Part shown: positions 47,773 through 59,172 of the stretch, piece after piece
Position numbering within the stretch: position 1 is the first letter of the stretch
Layout: each line of letters opens with the position of its first letter
The notes under the pieces: generated by a model
Told to the model about the DNA's origin: nothing
Seen by the model: only the letters and a program-made list of their open reading frames with translations
Databases searched by the model: none
Translations under genes and position numbers: made by a program
NCBI GenBank assembly: GCA_052387335.1
Contig: JBQTJH010000080.1
Location: forward strand, 1 to 59,172
Length of the DNA stretch: 59,172 bases
Direction: 5' to 3'
From: Panacagrimonas sp.
GTDB taxonomy: Bacteria > Pseudomonadota > Gammaproteobacteria > Nevskiales > Nevskiaceae

Positions 47773-48336
47773 ATGATTCCGTCCATTCTCAAGCTCGACG
47801 CCGGCGGTCAGCCGGTCGCCTGGATCCGATGGCAGTCCGCCGTCACGCTCTACGCGCGCGATCGAGTGTGCTGGGAAGCAGGAGAAGAACGCTTCCGCAT
47901 TCTCGGTGGCGTCTGCGCCCGCACCGGCACCCGCTCCAGCTTCGAGATCGGATCGATCATCGCGGTAGCTGACAAGTCCAGAAAGTTCGCCAGTGGCATC
48001 CCGCTGCTGACCAACCGCACGCTGTTTCAACGTGACCACAACCTGTGCCTGTATTGCGGGCGCCAATTCCAGATCTCGGCGCTGACGCGTGACCACGTCA
48101 TCCCCGCCTCGCGCGGCGGCGAAAGTGCTTGGGAAAATTGCGTGACCGCCTGTGAACGCTGCAATCATCGCAAGGCAGATCGCACGCCCGAAGAAGCGAA
48201 CATGAAGCTGCTCGCGGTGCCGTACACGCCAAATCTGGCCGAGTATCTGATTCTGTCGAACCGAAAAATTCTGGCTGATCAGATGGAGTTCTTGCTGGCG
48301 TTCGCGGGCAAGAAGCAGCGCGCTCGCGCGCAGTAA
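47773..48336 (+). CDS. HNH endonuclease (McrA-like, Zn-binding)
   Basis: RDHNLCLYCG, TRDHVIPASRGG, WENCVTACERCNHRK. Confidence 0.92.
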   Translation: MIPSILKLDAGGQPVAWIRWQSAVTLYARDRVCWEAGEERFRILGGVCARTGTRSSFEIGSIIAVADKSRKFASGIPLLTNRTLFQRDHNLCLYCGRQFQISALTRDHVIPASRGGESAWENCVTACERCNHRKADRTPEEANMKLLAVPYTPNLAEYLILSNRKILADQMEFLLAFAGKKQRARAQ

Positions 48337-48398
48337 GTCTTTGGCTGTATCTCCCGACGGCCTCGCCAACATCGCAATCCATCATCGAGAAGATCTGC

Positions 48399-48851
48399 AT
48401 GAAACTCGAAACTATTGTGCTGCCCATGGGCGGCAACCCTGCTCCCAACCTGATCACCGGCGGCCAGCCAAGTGCGGCGGACTTCGAGGCCATGGCCAAG
48501 GCCGGCCTCAAGCACATCGTGAACCTGCGTCCGGAAACCGAAGACGCCGGCTTCGACGAACGCGCGCTCGCCGCGAAACTCGGCTTGAGCTACACCGTGG
48601 TGCCGATCAGCGGTGCGGGCGACTTCGATCTCGCGCGCGCCAGGGCGCTGGACGAGGCGATGGCCAAGACCGGCGGCGAACCCACGCTCGTTCACTGCGC
48701 GAGCAGCAATAGGGTCGGTGGCCTGCTCGCGCTGCGCGCGGCCTGGGTGCAGGGACAGTCGAAGGACGATGCGATGGCCTTCGGCCGCGCCGGTGGCCTG
48801 ACCAAGATGGAAGGCGCGGTGCAGGCGCTGCTGGATCGCGGGCCGGCCTGA
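48399..48851 (+). CDS. DUF442-type sulfurtransferase/phosphatase-fold protein
   Basis: GGQP, IVNLRP..E, LVHCASSNRVG. Confidence 0.8.
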   Translation: MKLETIVLPMGGNPAPNLITGGQPSAADFEAMAKAGLKHIVNLRPETEDAGFDERALAAKLGLSYTVVPISGAGDFDLARARALDEAMAKTGGEPTLVHCASSNRVGGLLALRAAWVQGQSKDDAMAFGRAGGLTKMEGAVQALLDRGPA

Positions 48852-48855
48852 GACC

Positions 48856-49926
48856 CTAAGCGAGCAGCGACGCCGCCTTCACCTGCGCCCACACCTCGCG
48901 TCCGGGTTCCAGTTGCAGGGCGGCGCAGGAGCGTCGCGTGATGCGGGCGAGCAAGGTTGCGCCGCCCGCATCGAGTCGCACCAGCATCTGCGCCGGATGC
49001 GTGCCCGCGGCGAGTTCGGTGACGCGCGCAGGCAGCAGGTTGAGGATGCTGCTGTGCGCCGGGCGTTCCAGCGCCAGGCTCACGTCGCGCGCCTGCACGC
49101 GGGCGCGCAGCGCGGTGCCGATTTTTTCTGCGCGCAGCGGCACCCACAGGCTGCCGCCGGAAAAATCCAGCCGCGTGAGCTGATCGCTCGCATCGTGCTC
49201 GGCGATCACGGTGTCGATCAGCGCGCCGGGGTCGTCGGCGAACGCGCCGGCCAGATCGAGCCGCGCCATCAGCGACGCGGCCGGCCCGCTTGCCAGCACC
49301 TTGCCAGCGTCGAGCAGCACAAGGTGATCGGCCAGGCGCGCGACTTCCTCGATCGCGTGGCTGACATAGATCGCCGGGATTTCCAGTTGCGCGTGCAGGC
49401 GTTCGAGGTAGGGCAGGATCTCGGCCTTGCGCGCGGCATCGAGGCTGGCGAGCGGTTCGTCGAGCAGCAGCAGGCGCGGATCGGCGAGCAGCGCGCGGGC
49501 AATCGCGACGCGCTGCTTCTCGCCGCCGGACAAGCCTTCTGGCATGCGATCCAGCAGCGCACGGATGCCGAGCAAATCCACGATGCCGCCGAAGCTCACG
49601 CCGGTCGGTCGACCCGCGCGCTTCCAGCCGAACGCCAGGTTCTGCCGCACGCGCAAGTGCGGAAACAGATTGGCGTCCTGAAACACGTAGCCGATTGCGC
49701 GGCGGTGCGCGGGCACAAACGTGGCGTCGTCCTGCCACACCGCGTTCTGCACGCGCACCTTGGCACCGCTCACGCGCTCAAGCCCCGCGATCACGCGCAA
49801 GCAAGTCGTCTTGCCGGAACCGGAGGGACCGAACAGCGCGGTGATGCCTTGTGCCGGCAACGCAAGATCAACATCCAGCGCAAAGCCGGGACGCGACAGC
49901 GCGGCGCGCAGCGCGACCCCGCTCAT
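48856..49926 (-). CDS. modC: Molybdate ABC transporter ATPase ModC
   Basis: [34 protein letters not shown] domain SSILNLL/AQVKA. Confidence 0.95.
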
Positions 49927-50603
49927 CGCAGCCCCCGCACTCTCGGGTTGAACCAGTACAGCGCGAGCAGCACGACAAAGGAGAACACCAGCAACACCGC
50001 GGCCAGCGCGTGCGCCTGCGCGTAGTCGAAGGCCTCGACGTGATCGTAGATCTGCACCGATACCACGCGCGTTTCACCCGGAATGCTGCCGCCGATCATC
50101 AGCACCACGCCGAACTCGCCCACGGTGTGTACGAAGCCGAGCACCGTCGCGGTGAGAAATCCCGGCCGTGCCAGCGGCATCACCACGCTGAAGAAGCGAT
50201 CCAGCGGCGCGGCGCGCAAGGTGGCTGCGGCTTCGAGCGTGCGCTCGTCTATGGCCTCGAAAGCGTTCTGCAACGGCTGCACCACGAAGGGCAGCGAGTA
50301 CAGCATGGAGGCGACGACGAGGCCGCCGAAGGTGAACGGCAGCAGGCCCAGGCCGAGCGCCTGCGTGAGCTGGCCGAGCGGACCGTTGGGACCAAACGCG
50401 ATCAGCAGGTAGAAACCCAGCACGGTCGGCGGCAACACCAGCGGCAGCGCGATGATGGCCGCAACCGGCCGCTTCCACGCGCCGCGTGCGCGTGCAAGGC
50501 CCCACGCGAGCGGCGTGCCGATCAGCAGCAGGAGCAGGGTGACGACGGTCGCGAGCTTGACCGTCAGCCACAGCGCGGCGAGGTCCGCATCCGAGAGCGT
50601 CAT
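49923..50603 (-). CDS. modB: Molybdate ABC transporter permease ModB
   Basis: [41 protein letters not shown]. Confidence 0.96.
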
Positions 50604-50612
50604 CCGCGCATG

Positions 50613-51377
50613 CTACTGCGCAGCCGGCAGCGTGTAGCCGTGACGCTCGATGATCGCGCGCGCCGCGGCGGTGTCGAGCAGCGCGGCGAATGCTCGGCCC
50701 AGCGGCTTGTCCGCACCGATCTTGGTGACGACGAAGGCCTGGTCCAGCGGGGCATGCAGGGCGTCATCGACCAATGCGTATCCGCCGCGCTGTGACAGCT
50801 CCGGGTCCAGCGCCTGCGCCAGCGCGATGAAGCCGATCTGCGCGTTGCCGGTCTGCACGAACTGCGCGGCCTGCGCGATGTTCTCGCCGAACACGAGTCT
50901 GGATTCGACCTTCTCCCACATCGCGCTGGCGCGCAGCGCTTCCTCGGCGCGTGCGCCGTAGGGCGCGGTGCGTGGATTGGCCAACGCGATCTTCGTGAAA
51001 CGCTCCTGCGCGAGGTCCGCCAGCTTCACCGTGCTCGCATCCACGCTCGCGCTCCACAGCGCGAGACGGCCACGCGCGTAGATCTTCGGCGGAGTCGCAG
51101 CGTGGCCGGATTTCTCCAGCGCCTGCGGAAACTCGACATCCGCCGAGAAGAACAGGTCGAAGGGCGCGCCCTCGCGGATCTGCGCGCTGAGCTTTCCCGA
51201 GGAGCCGAAAGTCGCGTCGACCTTAGCGTCGGCGTGATCCTTCGTGAACAGCGCGATCAGCTCTTCCCTCGCCGGTTTGAAGTTGGCCGCGGTGGCGATC
51301 AGCAATCGATCCTGTGCGGACGCGTGGGGCAGCGCCGCGAGCCACACGGTCAGTGCAAGAAATATCCGAATCATCAT
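50613..51377 (-). CDS. modA: Molybdate-binding protein ModA
   Basis: Signal peptide, AAN, GSSG, GAPFDLFFSAD, ANP.TAPYG, GENIAQ. Confidence 0.93.
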   Translation of the reverse strand: MMIRIFLALTVWLAALPHASAQDRLLIATAANFKPAREELIALFTKDHADAKVDATFGSSGKLSAQIREGAPFDLFFSADVEFPQALEKSGHAATPPKIYARGRLALWSASVDASTVKLADLAQERFTKIALANPRTAPYGARAEEALRASAMWEKVESRLVFGENIAQAAQFVQTGNAQIGFIALAQALDPELSQRGGYALVDDALHAPLDQAFVVTKIGADKPLGRAFAALLDTAAARAIIERHGYTLPAAQ

Positions 51378-51381
51378 GGCC

Positions 51382-51882
51382 TCACGGTCTCATATCGATC
51401 AGCTCGATGCGTTCAAGCTGCCGCACCCAGCGCGCGCCGCGCGCCTCATCTGCCACCACCAGCCGCAGCGGCCCCTCATCAGCCCCCAGTGGCTTCCCGT
51501 CGCGGCGATCCGCAAGCAGGATCGGGCGCTCGCGGAAGCCGGGATCGAGCTCGGCGAGCGCGAACACCGCGACATAGCCATCGCGCGCAATCACCCGCAG
51601 CGCCAAGGCCATCTTCTCGCCGCGCAGCACCTTGCCCAGCGGCATGCCCGCGCGCTGCAAAAGATCACGCATCCACACGCCTTCAAACTGCGCCGGGTGA
51701 CCATGATCCAGCGCCTCGATCTGCCGCCGGGGCAGCGAGTCGAGCAGCGTGGCATCCACCTCCAAGGCCGCGATGCCGGCTCCCGACAGCCGCAGGAGCG
51801 CCGGCTCTGTCGCGGCCGCCAAGCCCCAAGCGAGCGACAGCACCAGCGCACACAGGACTCTCAATCTTGCGCAGCGTTTCAT
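51382..51882 (-). CDS. Secreted protein with sulfite-oxidase-like molybdopterin-binding fold fragment
   Basis: Signal peptide; FEGV...LL, ARDGY, EGPLRLVV....GARWVRQL..I resemble Oxidored_molyb motifs; no Cys in the mature part. Confidence 0.7.
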   Translation of the reverse strand: MKRCARLRVLCALVLSLAWGLAAATEPALLRLSGAGIAALEVDATLLDSLPRRQIEALDHGHPAQFEGVWMRDLLQRAGMPLGKVLRGEKMALALRVIARDGYVAVFALAELDPGFRERPILLADRRDGKPLGADEGPLRLVVADEARGARWVRQLERIELIDMRP

Positions 51883-51891
51883 GAGGCGATC

Positions 51892-53919
51892 TCAGTACCG
51901 GTAGTCGAGCTGCGCGAGCCAGGTGCGGCCGGGCTCGAAGAAGCCTTCCTGGTAGGCATACAGCTCGTCGAACAGATTGCGCCCGCCCAGTTCCAGCCCC
52001 AGGTGCTGAATCGGCTCGAAGCGCACGAAAGCGTGGACGAGCGTGAAGTCATCGGCCACCCGCACGCCGTCGGTCGTGCTGTAGCGCTTCGTCTCGTGCT
52101 GAGCATCGGTCTTCAGGGTCCAGCGCTGCACCGGCCTCCACGCGAGTGCGAGCCGGTATTTCTGCTCCGGCGTATCGATCTGCCGCAGCTCCGGCCGCGA
52201 GCGGTTCTCGCGGTCCAGCACCGAGACCTGCGCGTCGACTTTGAGCGTCGTGAGCGGTTTCCACACCGCGCCCAGTTCCACGCCGCGATTGCGCTGCTCG
52301 CCGATGTTCTGTTGCTGGAAGCAGGTCGGATTCGGCGTGGTGCACTGGTCGTTGGGGATGGTGACGTTCTCGATCGCATCGTCGAGATCGGCCTGGAACA
52401 CGGCAAAACGAAGGTCGAGTCCGGGCAGGCGTCGCACCATGCCGATCTCCAGATGCACCGCGCGCTCCGGCTGCAAGCCCGGGTTGGGGACCGCGCTGCC
52501 AAGGCGGAAGGAGAAGCGATCCTTGATGGTCGGGAAGCGCGTCTTGCGGCTGATGCCGGCAAGCAGGTCCAAATCCGGCGTCACTGCCCAGTTCATCGCG
52601 AGCTGGGCGTTGTGCGCGTCCGCCCTGTCCACCGGTTGCGCCACCACGACACCGTTCTGGTTGTTCTCCGCCTCGCGGCCGTCCTGCACGGTGTACGCGT
52701 AGCCGGGTGTCAGGGTCACGGTGTCGTTGGTGCGCCATTCGTGTTCCAGCGCGAGCGCCCACGAACGATCCTCGTAGCGCTCCTCGGGTGCGCCGGTGTT
52801 GTCGATCTCGCGATGCACGTCCTGCTTCCAGTGCAGGGCCACGCGTGATGCCTGCGCCAGCTGCCAGCGCCACTCGAAGTCTGCGTTGCCGCCGATCGTG
52901 TAGTCGTCGTACTCGCTGCCCAGGAACAAGGATGCGGTGCGTGCTGCGTTGTTCCAGCCATTGAGCGCGTTGCGGAACTGGTCCCAGTACGCGCGCCAGC
53001 GCAAGGTGCCTTGCGACCCGACGCCGTTACGCGCGGTGAGATACACGCTCTGCTTATCCCAGTACGGCCACTCCCAGAAGCGTGCCTGCACGCCGGCCGC
53101 GCTGCCGGCGTAGGGCGGAGAGTTCTTCTCGCCGTCCTGCCGGTAGTAGCTCAGCGCGTACTCGTCGCCGTTGTCGGGCAGAAAGCCGACCTTGGCGCTG
53201 AACACCTGGTCCTGGCTGTCCGCGTTCTCGCGCGCGCCACCATTCTCGGCGGCAACGGCATCAAAATCGTCTGGCAGGGCGTAGCCCTCGGAGTCCACGT
53301 AAGAGCCGGTGAGCAAGCCGTACCACTGCCCGCGCAGGCCACCGACCGAAGCGGAGTAGCGCTGCTCCAGGGAATTGCTGCTCTCGCCGATCTCGCTGCC
53401 GATCTCGAACCCCGTCTCCAGCGACGCGGTCGGCTTGCGGCTGCCCACGTTGATCGCACCGCCAAGAATATTGGGGCCGTAGAGCACCGAGGCGAACCCC
53501 TTGCTGACCTTGATCTCGGACACGTAGTCCACGCCGAAGCGCGAAAGATCCACGTTGCCGTCGTAGGGCACGTACACCGGCACGCCATCGATGAACAGCG
53601 GCACCTGACGGCTGCTGAAGCCGCGCACCGACACCAGACGCTCACGGCGCTGGCCGACGTTCTGCAAGGTCACGCCCGGCAGCAGGTCCAGCGCCTCGGA
53701 CAGATCGTCGCGGTGCAACACCGAAAGGGTTTCCGCATCCACCGTCTCCACCGCGAGTGCTGCGCTGTCGGCGGGATGCTGGCCGATGACCTCGATCACG
53801 CCGAGCGTGAACGTTGGGTCCGGAGACGGGGCTGGGTCCGGCTCCGCGCCCATCGCGGGCGCGCAGAGCGCCAGCGACAACAAGGCCGCGGCCGGACAGT
53901 CGAACGCAACTCCACGCAT
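51892..53919 (-). CDS. TonB-dependent receptor
   Basis: Signal peptide, TonB-box-like LGVIEVIG, plug LPGV/VRGF/IDGVP/SVLYGPNILGGAIN, NPGLQPE, NLFDELY, C-terminal DYRY. GGGAG RBS before ATG 53919. Confidence 0.93.
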   Translation of the reverse strand: MRGVAFDCPAAALLSLALCAPAMGAEPDPAPSPDPTFTLGVIEVIGQHPADSAALAVETVDAETLSVLHRDDLSEALDLLPGVTLQNVGQRRERLVSVRGFSSRQVPLFIDGVPVYVPYDGNVDLSRFGVDYVSEIKVSKGFASVLYGPNILGGAINVGSRKPTASLETGFEIGSEIGESSNSLEQRYSASVGGLRGQWYGLLTGSYVDSEGYALPDDFDAVAAENGGARENADSQDQVFSAKVGFLPDNGDEYALSYYRQDGEKNSPPYAGSAAGVQARFWEWPYWDKQSVYLTARNGVGSQGTLRWRAYWDQFRNALNGWNNAARTASLFLGSEYDDYTIGGNADFEWRWQLAQASRVALHWKQDVHREIDNTGAPEERYEDRSWALALEHEWRTNDTVTLTPGYAYTVQDGREAENNQNGVVVAQPVDRADAHNAQLAMNWAVTPDLDLLAGISRKTRFPTIKDRFSFRLGSAVPNPGLQPERAVHLEIGMVRRLPGLDLRFAVFQADLDDAIENVTIPNDQCTTPNPTCFQQQNIGEQRNRGVELGAVWKPLTTLKVDAQVSVLDRENRSRPELRQIDTPEQKYRLALAWRPVQRWTLKTDAQHETKRYSTTDGVRVADDFTLVHAFVRFEPIQHLGLELGGRNLFDELYAYQEGFFEPGRTWLAQLDYRY

Positions 53920-53990
53920 CGTGCGCTCCCAAGGTCGTAATGCGGCTGGCGACGGCCTGCGCAACGGCGTCGCCAGTCTCGGCAACGCAT

Positions 53991-54014
53991 CGCTATGTAC
54001 ATAAGTATATAGCG
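53991..54014. promoter_or_regulatory. ModE binding site
   Basis: CGCTATGTA-CATAAG-TATATAGCG matches the ModE consensus CGxTATATA-N6-TATATAxCG; lies between modE and the receptor gene. Confidence 0.85.
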
Positions 54015-54050
54015 CACGACGCGCGCTTTGCCGCTCGTTCCGCTGCGGAC

Positions 54051-54860
54051 TCAGCCAGCTACGCCGAGAATCACGCTGGACGCCTTGAAGATCGCGGTGG
54101 CCGGCGTGCCGGGTTTCAGGCCCAGCGCCTTGATCGACGCATGGGTCACGATGGCCACCACCGACTGCCCGCCGCGCAGCGCCAGCACCACCTCGGTGTT
54201 CACCGCACCCGGAGTCAGCGCCTGTACCGTACCGCGCAACTGGTTGCGTGCAGACAGCTTCATCGCCTGCGCATCGCCCGCGGCGAGCAGGATCCAAGAG
54301 GCCTTGATCAGCGCAACCGCCTCCGCGCCCTTCTTGAGACCCAGGGTCTGCGTGCTCTCGCGCGTGATGGTGGCGACGATGCGGTCGCCGCCCGGCAATT
54401 GCAGTTCCACCTCGTCGTTGACCGCGCCGCGCGTCACGCGCGTGACAGTGCCGGCAAAGTGGTTGCGCGCGCTGGTGATCATGGTCATGCGACCCAGGGT
54501 GGCGAGATCGGTCTTGCTCTTCACTCGTCGATTCACGCGCTCGACGAAACGCTCGCTCTCCGCGCGCACCGTGCGGAACGTGGCCACCAGCTCGCGGCCC
54601 TGCTTGGTGAGTTGCGCGCCGCCGCCGCCCTTGCCGCCCACGCTGCGCTCCACCAGCAGGTGGCCTGCCAGATTGTTCATGGTGGCAATCGCGTCCCATG
54701 CCGCCTTGTAGCTCAGGCCCACGGCCTTGGCCGCGGCGGTGATCGAGGGCTGCGTTTCGAGACTCGCGAGCAATTCCATCCAGCGCTGGCGGAACGGCGC
54801 GCTGCCCGCGCCCGTGCGCAGGCTGAGCTGGCTTTCGACTTTCGGCGCGCTGCGTGCCAC
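54051..54860 (-). CDS. modE: Molybdenum-responsive regulator ModE
   Basis: HTH SITAAAKAVGLSYKAAWDAI, GGKGGGGA, two TOBE/Mop domains (TSARN, LSARNQL). Confidence 0.95.
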   Translation of the reverse strand: MARSAPKVESQLSLRTGAGSAPFRQRWMELLASLETQPSITAAAKAVGLSYKAAWDAIATMNNLAGHLLVERSVGGKGGGGAQLTKQGRELVATFRTVRAESERFVERVNRRVKSKTDLATLGRMTMITSARNHFAGTVTRVTRGAVNDEVELQLPGGDRIVATITRESTQTLGLKKGAEAVALIKASWILLAAGDAQAMKLSARNQLRGTVQALTPGAVNTEVVLALRGGQSVVAIVTHASIKALGLKPGTPATAIFKASSVILGVAG

Positions 54861-54861
54861 C

Positions 54862-55479
54862 TCAGGCCGGCACAGCCACGCCGCGCGTCACGTACACCAC
54901 CGGCTTCGGACCCCAGAGATAGCTTTCCTCGATCTCGGTCGGTTTGAAGCCGCCGTCGCGCAGCATGTCGCGCACCGAGCGATTGAGGTGACAGCCACCC
55001 GCGATCGGCTTCCAGTACGGCGTCAGCCGGTCCTGCCACTTGTGCACGTGCGGCTCCGGCGACTGGCCGTGCTCGCAGAACAGCAACTGCCCACCCGGCT
55101 TGAGCACTCTGCGCATTTCCTTGAGCGCCTTGATCGGATCAGGAATCGTGCACAAGGTGAACGTGCAGACCACCGTGTCGTAGGTCGCGTCGGCGGCGGG
55201 AATCTCCTCGGCCGACAGGGTGATCAGTTCCACGTCCAGCCCTGCCTTTCGGGCGCGCTCGGTCGCCTTGTCGTTCATCTGGTCGGCCGGGTCCAGGCCA
55301 TGCAGCGCGCTGAGCTTGGCGCGATCGTAGAACTCCAAATTGCGGCCGGTGCCGATACCAATTTCCAGCACCTTACCGGTTGCGCGAGGCAGCAGCTTGG
55401 CGCGCTCCTTCTGGATATCGCCCATGCCGCACAAGGTGTCGATCAGCAGCGGCATCACGTAACGGTCGTACAGGTTCAT
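54862..55479 (-). CDS. Class I SAM methyltransferase (METTL7/PmtA-like)
   Basis: VLEIGIGTG, FTLCTIPD, LKPGG, FCEHG, GGCHLNR. Confidence 0.88.
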   Translation of the reverse strand: MNLYDRYVMPLLIDTLCGMGDIQKERAKLLPRATGKVLEIGIGTGRNLEFYDRAKLSALHGLDPADQMNDKATERARKAGLDVELITLSAEEIPAADATYDTVVCTFTLCTIPDPIKALKEMRRVLKPGGQLLFCEHGQSPEPHVHKWQDRLTPYWKPIAGGCHLNRSVRDMLRDGGFKPTEIEESYLWGPKPVVYVTRGVAVPA

Positions 55480-55507
55480 CTAGATACTCCCCGGGGGAGC
55501 GCAAATT

Positions 55508-56521
55508 CTACGCCGTCGCTCCTCCGCAGGAACTGCCCGCGCCCGCGGTGCAGCCCAGGCAATGCGCGCCGAAGCGGATCGGGCGCGTCAGCACACGCTC
55601 GATATCGAAGTCGAAGATGCTCAGCGCCGCGCCGCTGGCGTCGCGTGCATCCAGTTCCAGCATCTGGTTGAAGTCGCAGTCGTAGATGCGCCCGTCGTGG
55701 CTGACTGAGATCAGGTTCCGGCACATCACGTTCTCCGCCGCCGCCGGATTGAATGCGCCGAGCAGCTTGTCCATGTAGCTCTCGTACTGCCCAGACTTGC
55801 GCAGGTGCAACGCGAAGCGGTGGATCGGCATGTTGGTGATGGTGAACAGGCCGTTGAAGTGCAGGCCGAACCTGGCCAGTAGCTCGCGCTTGTAATCGGC
55901 TTCCAGACTCGCCTGCGCGGCCGGCAGGTAAGGGCCGACCGGGTTGTAGACCAGGTTCAGCATCAGCCCCGTGCCGTCCATGCCAAAGCCGACCTCGTTG
56001 AGGCGCTTGAGCGCGGCCATGCTCTTGCCGAATACACCCTTGCCGCGCTGGGCGTCAGTGAAGAACTCGGCGTAGTACGGCAGCGAGGACACCACCTCCA
56101 CGCGCTGCTCGGCGAAGAACTCGGGCAGCTGCGACTTGCCCTCGCCCGTGACTGGATGTCCGTCGAACTGCACCGTGAGGTTGTGCCGAACCATGACGTG
56201 CTTGCCGAGTTCGCGAGCGCGGATCACGAACTCGGCGAAGCGCGGATGCAGTTCCGGCGCACCGCCGGTGAGATCGAGCGTCTTGATCTGAGGATGCGCG
56301 GCGAGAATCTCCAGGCACTTGTCCACGCCGGCGTCCGACAGAGCTTCCTTGCGCGCGGGCGAGGCATCCACGTGGCAATGCCGGCAGGCCTGGTTGCAGG
56401 TTTTGGTCAGATTGATCTGCAAGGTGTCGATGCCGCGCACCGGCAGGCTCAGGCTGTGCGCGGCTAGCAGCGCGTCAAAGTCGTACTTCGCGCGCAGCGG
56501 GGATGGGGTCGGCGCGTTCAT
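55508..56521 (-). CDS. arsS: Arsenosugar-biosynthesis-type radical SAM protein (ArsS family)
   Basis: TLQINL..CNQACRHCHV, DLTGGAPELHP, LVYNPVG, NMPI.RF, MCR, YDCDFNQM, HCLGCTAGAGSSCGG; directly downstream of arsM. Confidence 0.88.
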   Translation of the reverse strand: MNAPTPSPLRAKYDFDALLAAHSLSLPVRGIDTLQINLTKTCNQACRHCHVDASPARKEALSDAGVDKCLEILAAHPQIKTLDLTGGAPELHPRFAEFVIRARELGKHVMVRHNLTVQFDGHPVTGEGKSQLPEFFAEQRVEVVSSLPYYAEFFTDAQRGKGVFGKSMAALKRLNEVGFGMDGTGLMLNLVYNPVGPYLPAAQASLEADYKRELLARFGLHFNGLFTITNMPIHRFALHLRKSGQYESYMDKLLGAFNPAAAENVMCRNLISVSHDGRIYDCDFNQMLELDARDASGAALSIFDFDIERVLTRPIRFGAHCLGCTAGAGSSCGGATA

Positions 56522-56538
56522 CGGCGCAACACCATCTG

Positions 56539-56640
56539 GCCACGGATTTCGCGGATAGACGCCGATAAAACCGATAACTCCGAGGCGACATGAACCACCT
56601 GTTTCAGCCTTGATCCGCGTTCATCCGCGAAATCCGTGGC
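56539..56640. repeat. Inverted-repeat element, copy 1 (102 bp)
   Basis: 28-bp arms GCCACGGATTTCGCGGATAGACGCCGAT / ATCCGCGTTCATCCGCGAAATCCGTGGC (25/28 complementary), 46-bp spacer. Confidence 0.85.
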
Positions 56641-56660
56641 GAATATTTTCTCTCTTTCCA

Positions 56661-57710
56661 TCAGCAGCATCCCGCCTTGGCGCCCGCTTCCGAAGTCTGC
56701 ACCAGCGCGTTCGGGCCGCAGTCGAACAAGCCGAAGTGCGTGTTCTTGTCGCCGCTCAGGCGGAAGTGCGCGGCGTAGCGCGTGCCGCTGAGCATGTCGG
56801 CGGTGTTGCCGCAGACCAGCATCGGGCGGCCTGTTTCGAAGCGGTGATGGTCGTCGAGCACGAAGGCGTGCGGGTTGTGCGGCTCGCTGCCGAGGTAGGT
56901 CGCGACCTGGCCGAAGTCCTCGCAGCGATCTTCCAGCGCGAGCTTGAACGCGCGCACGGTCATGGAGAAGAAGCGGATATTGCCGGTCTTCGCCGCGATG
57001 TCCGGATTGTTGATCGCCAGCGGCGAGGACGACACCACTCGCGCATCCAGGCAACCGACCTTGGCCATCTCGCGACGAAAGTCCTCGATATACAGCGCGC
57101 CGCCCAGGCACTCGCCGAGCAACACCGGGTCGGTGGCCAGCGCGCGCGGGATGCGGCGATCGGCGAACACGTCGGAGAAATACAGCTCGCCGCCCGGCTT
57201 GAGCACACGGAAGATTTCCGCAAAGCAACGCGCCTTGTCGGGCGACAGGTTCAGCACGCAGTTGGAGATCACCAAGTCCACGCTCGCATCTGTGATGCCG
57301 GCGGCGGCGAGGTCCTCGATGTAGCCGGTGCGGAATTCCACGTTCGCGTGACCGAGCCGTTCGGCGTGCCAAGCGAGGTGCTTGCGTGCCACGGCGAGTT
57401 GCTCATCGGTCATGTCCACGCCGATCACCTTGCCGTGCGGCCCGACCAGCTTGGACAGCACATAGCAATCGCGGCCCGAACCACTGCCGAGGTCCAGCAC
57501 TGTGGCTCCTTCAAGCGCCGGCGGGATCGGCGAGCCGCAGCCGTAGAAGCGATCGAGCACTTCCGTATGTACGTCCTTGAGCGCCTCGCGCACGTGCAGG
57601 GGCAAGGTCTCGGCCAGGCAGCAGGCGCTGGTCTGCAAATCGGCGGAGGACTTCAGCACTTGTCCGTAGTAGTCCTGGATGGAAGCGTGTGCGTTGAAAT
57701 CGCCGTTCAT
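56661..57710 (-). CDS. arsM: Arsenite S-adenosylmethionine methyltransferase (AS3MT-like long form)
   Basis: YYG..L..S.DL.TSACC, FYGCG, VLDLGSGSGRD, ISNCVLN, GECLGGA, EDRCEDFGQ, VCGNT, C-terminal CC. Confidence 0.88.
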   Translation of the reverse strand: MNGDFNAHASIQDYYGQVLKSSADLQTSACCLAETLPLHVREALKDVHTEVLDRFYGCGSPIPPALEGATVLDLGSGSGRDCYVLSKLVGPHGKVIGVDMTDEQLAVARKHLAWHAERLGHANVEFRTGYIEDLAAAGITDASVDLVISNCVLNLSPDKARCFAEIFRVLKPGGELYFSDVFADRRIPRALATDPVLLGECLGGALYIEDFRREMAKVGCLDARVVSSSPLAINNPDIAAKTGNIRFFSMTVRAFKLALEDRCEDFGQVATYLGSEPHNPHAFVLDDHHRFETGRPMLVCGNTADMLSGTRYAAHFRLSGDKNTHFGLFDCGPNALVQTSEAGAKAGCC

Positions 57711-57740
57711 GGTTTGTCGTCGTCAGCGTGAGTAGGAACA

Positions 57741-58544
57741 TCAGCCGCTGATGCCGCGCACATACGCGGCGGTCAGCGGGTGTCGCGGATTCTCGAAGAT
57801 GTCCTGCGCGGTACCGAACTCGATCAGCCGGCCGCTGCCGTCCTGCACCCAGAACACGCCGCAGAGATCGGCGATGCGCCGCGCCTGCGCCAGATTGTGC
57901 GTCACCACCAGCACGGTGTAGCGCGATTTCAGGCGCAGGATCAGGGCCTCGACCACCGCGCTGGAAATCGGATCGAGCGCCGAGCAGGGCTCGTCCATCA
58001 GCAGCACCTCGGGTTCCAGCGCGATGGCGCGTGCGATGCACAGGCGCTGCTTCTGCCCGCCGGACAGCGCCATCGCAGGCGCATCGAGTCGCTCGCGCAC
58101 CTCGTCCCACAGGCCCGCATCGCGCAGCGCCTGCTCGACTCTCGACGCGCGTTCGCCGCGCGGATAGCCGTGTTCGACCAGTGCGAGTTCCACGTTGCGG
58201 CGGATCGACAGCGGGAAGGGATTGGGCTTCTGGAAAATCATGCCGACGCGCTTGCGCAGCGCCAGCAGGTCCAGCCCCGGCGTGTGCGTGTCCAGCCCGC
58301 TCAGCAGCATCTGCCCGCTCATGTGACAGCCCGGCACCAGCTCGCACAGGCGGTTCATGCAGTTGAGCAAGGAGGTCTTGCCGCAGCCGGACGGACCGAT
58401 CAGCGCGGTGATCGAGCCGCGCGGTGCGATCAGCGACACATCGCGCACCACGCAGTGCTCGCCGTACCACACGCCGACTTCGCGCAGCTCGAGCATCGGC
58501 GCGAGTTCAGTCGGGATCGTTGGCGCGTCTTTCATCGAAGTCAA
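57741..58544 (-). CDS. pstB: PstB-like oxyanion ABC ATPase
   Basis: GPSGCGKT..LNCMNRL, VGMIFQKPNPFP, LSGGQKQRLCIARA, MDEPCSALDP, VTHNLAQA. Start TTG 58544 or ATG 58535. Confidence 0.88.
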   Translation of the reverse strand: MTSMKDAPTIPTELAPMLELREVGVWYGEHCVVRDVSLIAPRGSITALIGPSGCGKTSLLNCMNRLCELVPGCHMSGQMLLSGLDTHTPGLDLLALRKRVGMIFQKPNPFPLSIRRNVELALVEHGYPRGERASRVEQALRDAGLWDEVRERLDAPAMALSGGQKQRLCIARAIALEPEVLLMDEPCSALDPISSAVVEALILRLKSRYTVLVVTHNLAQARRIADLCGVFWVQDGSGRLIEFGTAQDIFENPRHPLTAAYVRGISG

Positions 58545-58553
58545 AAAGCATCA

Positions 58554-58648
58554 GCCACGGATTTCGCGGATACACGCGGATATAGGGCGAACATGAATTC
58601 CATGCACCAACTCGAATGGAATCCGCGTTCATCCGCGAAATCCGCGGC
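58554..58648. repeat. Inverted-repeat element, copy 2 (95 bp)
   Basis: 28-bp arms GCCACGGATTTCGCGGATACACGCGGAT / ATCCGCGTTCATCCGCGAAATCCGCGGC (25/28), 39-bp spacer; same orientation as copy 1. Confidence 0.85.
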
Positions 58649-58665
58649 CAATTGCCTTGTCGGAC

Positions 58666-59172
58666 TCATGCGCCCTGCACCTTGCGCGCCAGCCAAAGCC
58701 GCGCCAGGCCCGCGGCCGCGAGGTTGATGAGCAGCAGCAAGGCCACCAGCACCAGCGCGGTGCCATAGGCGTTGCGTTCGCCGCCGGGGATGTTCATGGC
58801 CAGATCGTAGATGTGAATGCTCATCGCGCGCCCGGAATCCATCAGCGAGGACGGCATGCGATCCACGTAACCGCTGGTGAAGATCAGCGCCGCGGTCTCG
58901 GCGAGCGCGCGGCCAATGCCCAGCACCAGGCCCGCAAGCAGGCCCGGCACCGCGGCCGGCAGCAGCACCTGCACGGTCACGGTCCAGCGCGACACGCCGA
59001 GCGCGGCGGCAGCTTGCCGATAGTCGTCCGGCACCGCGCGCAGGCCCTGCTCGGTGGCGCGGATCAGCAGCGGCAGTGCCATGCACGCGAGCGTCAGACC
59101 GCCGGACAGAATCGAGAAGCCCATGCCGAGCATCACGCAGAACAGCGCGTTGCCGAACAGGCCGAACACGAT
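58666..59172 (-). CDS. pstA: PstA-like permease (5' end outside the window)
   Basis: FGLFG, LTLA.M.LP.LIR.TE..LRAVP, ALG, GRALAETAALIFT, AYGTALVL. Confidence 0.85.
   Translation of the reverse strand: MVFGLFGNALFCVMLGMGFSILSGGLTLACMALPLLIRATEQGLRAVPDDYRQAAAALGVSRWTVTVQVLLPAAVPGLLAGLVLGIGRALAETAALIFTSGYVDRMPSSLMDSGRAMSIHIYDLAMNIPGGERNAYGTALVLVALLLLINLAAAGLARLWLARKVQGA

What the first reader, a model, noticed from the sequence alone, without database searches (positions are those of the whole stretch)
48856..54860. ModE-controlled TonB receptor plus secreted molybdopterin-fold protein plus ModABC: candidate Moco/molybdophore scavenging system
Seen: a near-perfect ModE box (53991-54014) precedes a tight operon of TBDR, a 166-aa secreted protein, and modA-modB-modC (gaps 9, 4, 9 nt, then an overlap). 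Established: free molybdate normally reaches ModA without an energised outer-membrane receptor, whereas TBDRs import complexes such as siderophores, heme and B12. The small protein carries sulfite-oxidase/MsrP-like pterin-domain motifs (DGY, GPLRLVV, RWVR) but has no Cys in its mature sequence to ligate Mo catalytically. Inference: under Mo starvation this unit may import Mo bound to an organic ligand (molybdopterin or a molybdophore), with the small protein receiving or stripping it in the periplasm for ModA.
Basis: partly seen in the sequence, partly recalled or inferred. Interest (0 to 1): 0.8.

Follow-up and report, generated by a model that had tools for sequence, protein, structure and literature searches.

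The report
Molybdenum-starvation outer-membrane uptake operon
A near-consensus site for the molybdate sensor ModE sits in front of five linked genes (an outer-membrane TonB receptor, a small sulfite-oxidase-fold protein predicted to be exported, and the molybdate pump ModABC), which likely let the cell actively pull scarce molybdenum across its outer membrane, a step usually assumed to be passive.

Summary
The ModE-type palindrome matches 17 of 20 E. coli consensus positions and is the only two-strand match in the genome; gene order and gaps are as described.

The receptor belongs to an uncharacterised TonB family with such boxes directly upstream in 16 of 28 related genome loci (background 8 of 3000). 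The small protein has a truncated, Cys-less sulfite-oxidase fold like PruR but fails PruR's defining features; 43 of 80 homologue loci carry molybdate-uptake genes.

The pairing is modular: the small protein sits beside the receptor in 1 of 28 loci. Elsewhere a di-haem enzyme module or a type II ABC importer replaces it.

Best reading: a Mo-starvation, TonB-energised uptake unit (about 0.8). The cargo is open: Mo chelate about 0.45, bare molybdate 0.25, Moco or pterin-Mo 0.2. Moco scavenging is possible but not favoured.

My ten paper searches found no Mo-importing TonB receptor. This scan noted the same kind of module before on other DNA; one such note partly fell on later checking. Nothing here is experimentally tested.

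The parts
54051..54860 (-). modE: winged-helix domain plus two Mop/TOBE domains, each with the SARN molybdate motif; the only modE found in the genome
   Evidence: below the curated cut-off of the enterobacterial model NF007957 (184 vs 369 bits)
53989..54016 (.). ModE-type operator (core 53991-54014), 71 nt before the receptor start; a -10-like hexamer lies inside it on the - strand
   Evidence: no full sigma-70 promoter was called here
51892..53919 (-). TonB-dependent receptor (plug and barrel) of an uncharacterised ModE-boxed family that includes the E. coli receptor beside modD
51382..51882 (-). 166-aa protein with predicted signal peptide and a truncated, Cys-less sulfite-oxidase (PF00174) fold; conserved D59-H60, D101-G-Y103, R140, R148, R151-W152-x-R154
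50613..51377 (-). modA, periplasmic molybdate-binding protein; the only one found in the genome
   Evidence: TIGR01256 186 bits, cut-off 62.5
49923..50603 (-). modB permease
   Evidence: TIGR02141 242 bits, cut-off 182.6
48856..49926 (-). modC ATPase
   Evidence: TIGR02142 441 bits, cut-off 285

Best explanation
This is a five-gene operon behind a ModE-type operator that likely switches on when molybdenum is scarce, likely pulls Mo across the outer membrane through its TonB receptor (most likely as Mo(VI) on a small organic chelator), likely catches it in the periplasm on the sulfite-oxidase-fold protein, and would pass molybdate to ModABC. Shown by sequence: operator, gene order, family identities, fold (as a model), recurrence of the operator with this receptor family, and recurrence of the small protein with Mo-ion genes. 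From established knowledge: ModE-molybdate represses modABC and ModABC imports molybdate. Inferred: repression here, TonB-driven Mo import, the cargo, and the small protein's role as a non-catalytic trap that uses the vestigial Moco-phosphate pocket (R140, R151, R154) with Y103 and W152. The periplasmic step is a swappable module. I put the core claim (Mo/W-starvation outer-membrane uptake) at about 0.8 and, given that, the chelate cargo at about 0.45-0.5.
For: Operator: 17 of 20 consensus positions, only two-strand match in the genome. Receptor family: a box within 400 nt upstream in 11 of 18 loci from the order and 5 of 10 from an even phylum sample, against 8 of 3000 random windows; also before the homologues in P. 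aeruginosa, Methylorubrum and at the head of the E. coli modD operon. modE-like genes lie in 12 of 28 loci and ModA-family genes in 4 of 28. Small protein: 43 of 80 loci carry modA, modB, a TOBE/Mop gene or a ModE-like gene within up to 7 kb, across Acidobacteriota, Pseudomonadota, Gemmatimonadota and other phyla; a ModA-like fusion exists (P0249); it lies inside a Deinococcus modA-TOBE-modB string; more distant relatives lie beside NifQ in Burkholderia and Caballeronia. For a complexed cargo: the other partners are FecCD/BtuCD-type importers (7 of 10 phylum loci, 5 with a methyltransferase) or a di-haem enzyme (14 of 18 order loci), and the receptor conserves Arg/Lys with Trp/Tyr, and no Cys or Met, in 37 rows. 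The genome has Mo demand (4 PF00384 and 1 xanthine-dehydrogenase-type matches) and TonB proteins.
Against: No binding, transport or expression data. 37 of 80 small-protein loci have no Mo-uptake gene, and 0 of 4 homologues from the even phylum sample do, so the family is not always Mo-linked; many of the 80 are related soil genomes. 12 of 28 receptor loci have no box directly upstream (2 are cut by contig ends, 4 follow modE directly, up to 5 have a match at or near the operon head), and two of the phylum-type loci with matches are AT-rich, where chance is higher. The exact collinear five-gene order was seen only in close strains, not in other species. In those strains the 212 nt holding the operator and signal peptide are replaced by 200 unlike letters, and I could not see whether a box is kept. 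H. influenzae MolBC-A is a type II importer of bare molybdate (PMC4031551), which weakens the chelate argument. No NRPS condensation domain was found in this 97%-complete genome, so a chelator would have to be foreign or non-NRPS. I could not see model coordinates, so pocket geometry and which receptor residues face the lumen are untested.
Confidence: 0.5

Rival explanations
1. Same operon and control, but the receptor concentrates bare molybdate or tungstate (or polyoxo species), and the small protein is a periplasmic oxyanion buffer.
For: The small protein's neighbours are Mo-ion proteins (ModA 28 of 80, TOBE 29 of 80, NifQ). It has an Arg cluster. TonB receptors for Mn2+ and Cu2+ are reported. 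MolBC-A carries bare molybdate. Porin genes replace the receptor near 5 of 80 small-protein loci.
Against: Does not explain the di-haem enzyme or methyltransferase partners, nor the invariant Trp cluster of the receptor or Y103/W152 of the small protein.
Confidence: 0.22
2. One reading: the receptor salvages Moco, molybdopterin or a Mo-bearing breakdown product, and the small protein binds the phosphorylated pterin and frees the metal for ModA.
For: The small protein keeps basic residues at the two positions where sulfite oxidases have Arg and Lys and PruR has aromatic residues (R140 in 98 of 114, R154 in 113 of 114); that these contact the Moco phosphate is recalled, not confirmed in my searches. 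The Tyr that stacks on pterin in PruR is invariant. The P. aeruginosa partner keeps a Cys near the hairpin and lies next to moaA and nar. A cofactor-importing receptor exists (PqqU with PQQ, PDB 9c4o).
Against: Cys hairpin deleted; Cys in those columns in 4 of 137 rows. PruR's similar site is described as too short for Moco. The receptor is beside this protein in 1 of 28 loci, and the label is not clustered on the receptor tree (5 changes, 173 of 500 shuffles as low). The genome has moaA, moaC and moeA. Free Moco is oxygen-labile (recalled).
Confidence: 0.17
3. The receptor is Mo-repressed but carries something else (tungsten for exclusion or use, iron complexes as proposed for the E. coli cluster, or a plain pterin), and the small protein is a PruR-like pterin binder only loosely tied to modABC.
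For: The E. coli prrA-modD-yc73-fepC cluster was proposed to serve iron uptake (PMC1890555, one passage). PruR structures are the top Foldseek hits. 0 of 4 evenly sampled homologues are Mo-linked.
Against: ModE-type boxes recur before this receptor family far above background. No GGDEF/EAL gene among 79 downstream neighbours. PruR's PW motif and W160 are missing.
Confidence: 0.11

Closest known systems
E. coli ModE-modABC regulon
   Same: Full-length ModE, a near-consensus operator and ModABC passing curated cut-offs.
   Different: Two extra genes lead the operon, an energised outer-membrane receptor and a periplasmic sulfite-oxidase-fold protein.
PruR periplasmic pterin-binding proteins (Agrobacterium; PDB 7kos, 7rkb, 7kom, 7kp2)
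   Same: About 170 aa, N-terminal signal, truncated Cys-less SUOX fold (Z 15-17, rmsd 1.8-2.7 A, 20-23% identity), Tyr104 kept.
   Different: No PW motif, W160 is Arg, N102 is Asp, no dcpA or sensor-kinase gene downstream; neighbours are Mo-uptake genes.
Sulfite oxidase / MsrP (YedY) Moco domain
   Same: Fold (Z 18.0, rmsd 1.8 A over 132 residues to chicken sulfite oxidase) and basic residues at the Arg and Lys positions.
   Different: The Mo-ligating Cys and its hairpin are missing; single small domain; predicted non-catalytic.
E. coli prrA-modD-yc73-fepC cluster
   Same: The receptor beside modD in E. coli is a 32% homologue, and that operon has a ModE-type box at its head. That this is the named cluster is inferred from gene content.
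   Different: It uses a type II ABC importer, methyltransferase and ModD instead of the small protein and ModABC, and was proposed to serve iron uptake.
P. aeruginosa T6SS-secreted ModA with IcmP
   Same: A reported protein-assisted route for molybdate across the outer membrane (review passages).
   Different: No TonB receptor; relies on secreted ModA.
H. influenzae MolBC-A
   Same: Molybdate-repressed importer; the permease beside the receptor in locus L174 has MolB (HI1471) as best PDB match.
   Different: Not present in this window; the binding proteins beside the receptor match MolA only weakly.

Membership tests
ModE regulon | Operator matching the E. coli ModE consensus before the first gene | tested here: met
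   17 of 20 positions, 71 nt before the start
ModE regulon | ModE with DNA-binding and Mop domains and the SARN motif | tested here: met
   HTH plus two TOBE/Mop domains, two SARN motifs; below the NF007957 cut-off
ModE regulon | Molybdate-dependent binding and repression | not testable with these tools
   needs EMSA or expression data
ModABC molybdate importer | ModA, ModB, ModC pass curated models | tested here: met
TonB-dependent receptors | Plug domain plus beta-barrel | tested here: met
   PF07715 and PF00593; model pLDDT 86; TonB proteins in genome
Characterised TonB subfamilies (BtuB, PqqU, CirA, haem, siderophore) | Score above the curated cut-off, or a close solved structure | tested here: not met
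   all 25 shown models far below cut-off; best structures 15-19% identical and tied
PruR pterin-binding proteins | Truncated SUOX fold without the Mo-ligating Cys | tested here: met
PruR pterin-binding proteins | N-terminal secretion signal | tested here: inconclusive
   basic then hydrophobic N-terminus here, and a hydrophobic stretch in 122 of 137 rows, by a crude hydropathy test only
PruR pterin-binding proteins | PW motif (W70) in the shortened hairpin | tested here: not met
   D59-H60-G61 instead
PruR pterin-binding proteins | Pterin site N102, Y104, W160 | tested here: not met
   Y kept (114 of 114); N is Asp (114 of 114); W160 is Arg in 113 of 114. The 2026 review notes Asp102 in two PruR groups
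PruR pterin-binding proteins | Operon with a downstream DcpA or DTB regulator | tested here: not met
   modA follows here; no GGDEF, EAL or sensor-kinase domain among 79 downstream neighbours
PruR pterin-binding proteins | Binds reduced pterins | not testable with these tools
   needs a binding assay
Catalytic sulfite oxidase family (SO, SorA, MsrP) | Cys ligand to Mo on a long beta-hairpin | tested here: not met
   no Cys in the mature chain; hairpin deleted against MsrP-like rows
Catalytic sulfite oxidase family (SO, SorA, MsrP) | Arg and Lys at the Moco-phosphate positions | tested here: inconclusive
   R140 and R154 align with them; their role is recalled, and the pocket could not be inspected

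The most novel reading that the evidence does not exclude
This receptor family is the missing molybdenum TonB transporter, importing a Mo-pterin (Moco, molybdopterin or a phosphorylated breakdown product) or an undescribed molybdophore, and the small protein founds a class of periplasmic Mo-cofactor-fold receivers. Bacteria, including some 40% of complete E. coli genomes, would then actively compete for organically bound Mo.
Probability: 0.3. Interest if true: 0.88.

Novelty: new variant of a known kind. Interest (0 to 1): 0.66.

Why it matters
How molybdenum crosses the outer membrane at nanomolar levels, and how chelated Mo is taken up, had no named TonB receptor in the papers I could search. 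This locus names a candidate receptor family, a regulator and alternative periplasmic partners, so the question becomes testable with an EMSA, a binding assay and an uptake assay. It would also re-label an operon found in 2140 of 5426 complete E. coli genomes that is annotated as iron transport, and give a function to a large family (918 clusters at E below 1e-30) mis-named 'molybdopterin-dependent oxidoreductase'.

Tried and rejected
Complex prediction of ModA with the small protein gave no answer (score 0.00); it is no evidence either way. No RNA holder was listed for the region, so expression is untested. No Rfam family, including the Moco riboswitch, at gathering score in 48000-56000. The promoter scan found no sigma-70 site at the operator. 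Receptor sequence and fold searches gave no close solved relative and no cargo clue. Laying four runs could not show the replaced promoter of related strains. Boxes were found with a short consensus pattern (exact, or one mismatch on both strands), not a weight matrix, so weak boxes may be missed (none seen in L128, L130, L131, L133, L111, L020, L022, L086, L121, L171). tblastn with the window's ModA missed the divergent ModA in L174; counts use the profile search. Rejected: the 935-aa ORF as the real receptor gene; PruR membership; a catalytic MsrP/SO role; mis-assembly (an independent contig runs from within modB to modE at about 94% identity); orthology of the E. coli binding protein with MolA (weak match). 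The small protein was not found in 60 relatives, apart from weak MsrP-like and PruR-like matches. No nitrogenase found. Two searches failed to confirm the Moco-phosphate residues. Studholme and Pau 2003, the ModE-site survey most likely to have noted such receptors, was not held.
Full report
1. Observation. ModA, ModB and ModC pass their curated models, and ModE has a helix-turn-helix and two Mop domains with SARN motifs; each is the only copy found in the genome. The palindrome at 53989-54016 matches 17 of 20 specified positions of the E. coli consensus printed in PMC545781 (passages). A core pattern matches it on both strands; 3 window matches stand against 0.21 expected. It is the only two-strand match in 2.89 Mb, and none of the other 13 TonB barrels lies on a contig with a match. 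An independent contig from a related strain runs from within modB to modE in the same order. Named best hits of the receptor (Sinimarinibacterium, Nevskia, Solimonas) suggest a Nevskiaceae host; this is inference.

2. The receptor. It has a plug and barrel but reaches no curated subfamily cut-off and no solved structure above 19% identity. It was found in 19 of 187 genomes of the order and 11 of 401 of an even phylum sample, both counts including this genome (only 6 and 2 candidates per genome were scored, so these are lower bounds). I fetched all 18 and all 10 other loci. A box lies within 400 nt upstream in 11 of 18 and 5 of 10, against 8 of 3000 random windows of this genome. Of the 12 without one, 2 are cut by contig ends, 4 follow modE directly, up to 5 have a match at or near the operon head (two of them AT-rich) and 1 has nothing. 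Kin are not independent, and low-GC loci inflate matches. Boxes also precede homologues in P. aeruginosa and Methylorubrum and head the E. coli modD operon. Across 37 rows the receptor conserves Arg/Lys (91, 99, 265, 461, 468), Trp (282, 284, 287), Tyr (116, 337), D367 and H369, with no conserved Cys or Met. Which of these face the lumen I could not see.

3. The small protein. It passes PF00174 and folds confidently (pLDDT 91). Foldseek ranks PruR structures first; the second aligner ties PruR and sulfite oxidases at Z 15-18. It is neither. The Cys hairpin of MsrP-like proteins is deleted. Against PruR (PMC11194511, parts 2-4 of 8 read; sequences) it lacks the PW motif, has Asp for N102 and Arg for W160, and keeps Y104. 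No DcpA-type gene is among 79 downstream neighbours. R140 and R154 align with the Arg and Lys of sulfite oxidases, which I recall as Moco-phosphate ligands; two searches did not confirm this. With R148, R151 and H60 this suggests an anion site that could hold a phosphorylated pterin, a Mo chelate or molybdate itself. A wider set (136 of 146 new representatives, the 10 longer than 240 aa dropped) shows the same residues.

4. Its neighbours. Of 136 confirmed genome loci the tool kept the best 80. 43 of 80 carry modA (28), a TOBE/Mop gene (29), modB (11) or a ModE-like gene (6) within up to 7 kb; 35 of 59 near-full-length loci do. Genes were called by my own ORF heuristic. A ModA-like fusion, a Deinococcus modA-TOBE-modB string without a receptor and NifQ operons of more distant relatives point the same way. 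Against this, 37 of 80 have no such gene, many of the 80 are related soil genomes, and 0 of 4 homologues from the even phylum sample are Mo-linked.

5. The pair is modular. This receptor family lies directly before the small protein in 3 of 80 small-protein loci and 1 of 28 receptor loci, plus L113 and a distant form in P. aeruginosa. On a quick tree of 37 receptors the small-protein label needs 5 changes and is not clustered (173 of 500 shuffles as low); the window's nearest relatives carry an unnamed 180-aa protein and a di-haem enzyme instead (the careful tree did not finish, and split or partial genes were left out). Seven of 10 phylum loci use a FecCD/BtuCD-type importer, and L174 holds both that and a modA set with modD. 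So the constant is receptor plus ModE control; the periplasmic step varies.

6. Mechanism. Shown: operator, order, families, recurrence. Established: ModE-molybdate represses modABC (PMC9171197, PMC11672702, passages). Inferred: at low Mo the operon is made, TonB energises import, the small protein holds the Mo species in the periplasm, and ModABC imports molybdate for a genome that has Moco synthesis genes and at least five matches to Mo-enzyme domains (some PF00384 matches may be NuoG-type). I give the core 0.8. For cargo I favour a Mo chelate, because the alternative partners are complex-type importers and a redox enzyme and the receptor conserves aromatic with basic residues. Bare molybdate is close behind: TonB receptors for Mn2+ and Cu2+ are reported (PMC8602904, passages) and MolBC-A carries bare molybdate (PMC4031551, passages). 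Moco salvage is third: the retained basic residues and the P. aeruginosa Cys favour it; the short hairpin, own Moco synthesis and the loose pairing do not.

7. Print and prior notes. Seven searches on TonB, ModE, modD and molybdophore terms (listings and abstract starts, plus passages of PMC7759655, PMC4965479 and those named above) showed no TonB receptor for Mo. The nearest items are T6SS ModA-IcmP and the E. coli prrA-modD cluster, proposed for iron (PMC1890555, one passage). The 2026 pterin review (PMC13259868, passages and part 3) does not mention TonB or modA. The library lacks most subscription papers; Studholme and Pau 2003, RegPrecise and the PruR paper's supplements were not seen and could hold an earlier prediction. 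This scan noted the same kind of module in other genomes, after I had stated my reading; these are unchecked AI notes, and for e1-2994641 a later check says part of it fell, without saying which.

8. Verdict. A real, well-supported candidate for energised outer-membrane molybdenum uptake: a new variant of the receptor-binding protein-ABC scheme with an unreported metal and an undescribed binding-protein subfamily. Interest 0.66. The Moco or molybdophore reading is not excluded (0.3) and would deserve 0.88.

Noticed in passing
L127:8763-10626 and 11 more of 18 order loci: The receptor's usual partners are an unnamed 180-aa exported protein (no Pfam family; Atlas clusters without a family) and a di-haem PF06537 enzyme; L140, L141, L178 and Azospirillum use a solute-binding protein plus the di-haem enzyme.
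   Followed up: partly
L174:7077-16000: One same-strand string holds a type II ABC importer, methyltransferase, modA, a Mo-type permease and ATPase, modD, a 158-aa membrane protein and the receptor.
   Followed up: partly
L120:2371-8842: E. coli 'iron ABC'-methyltransferase-modD-receptor operon with a ModE-type box at its head; present in 2140 of 5426 complete genomes.
   Followed up: partly
L119:6828-10383: P. aeruginosa strain with box, receptor and a sulfite-oxidase-fold partner that keeps a Cys near the hairpin, converging on moaA and narGHJI.
   Followed up: partly
L157:5872-7376; L158:4517-7320: Caballeronia and Burkholderia relatives of that partner lie in an operon with NifQ and a ModE-like HTH gene.
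   Followed up: no
L010, L016, L021, L025, L029, L032, L042, L083; L054, L059, L078, L085, L087: Unrelated outer-membrane transporters lie near the small protein: an acidobacterial barrel family in 8 of 80 loci and a porin-like family in 5 of 80.
   Followed up: partly
window 53824-54035: In close strains from four runs this stretch (operator and signal peptide) is replaced by 200 unlike letters while the flanks stay about 94-97% identical.
   Followed up: partly
window 54862-59169: modE ends a same-strand string of a Pst-like ABC ATPase and permease, an arsenite methyltransferase, the arsenosugar radical SAM enzyme ArsS (above cut-off) and a methyltransferase: an oxyanion cluster.
   Followed up: no
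window 48399-48851: A TIGR01244-like sulfur transferase gene converges on modC, 4 nt from its stop.
   Followed up: no
P0249; P0278: Fusions: ModA-like domain plus two small-protein domains; RTX and Ig repeats plus one domain.
   Followed up: no
L006:23-2085: A true PruR homologue upstream of a sensor-kinase-like gene in an order-level relative; used as the PruR control.
   Followed up: yes
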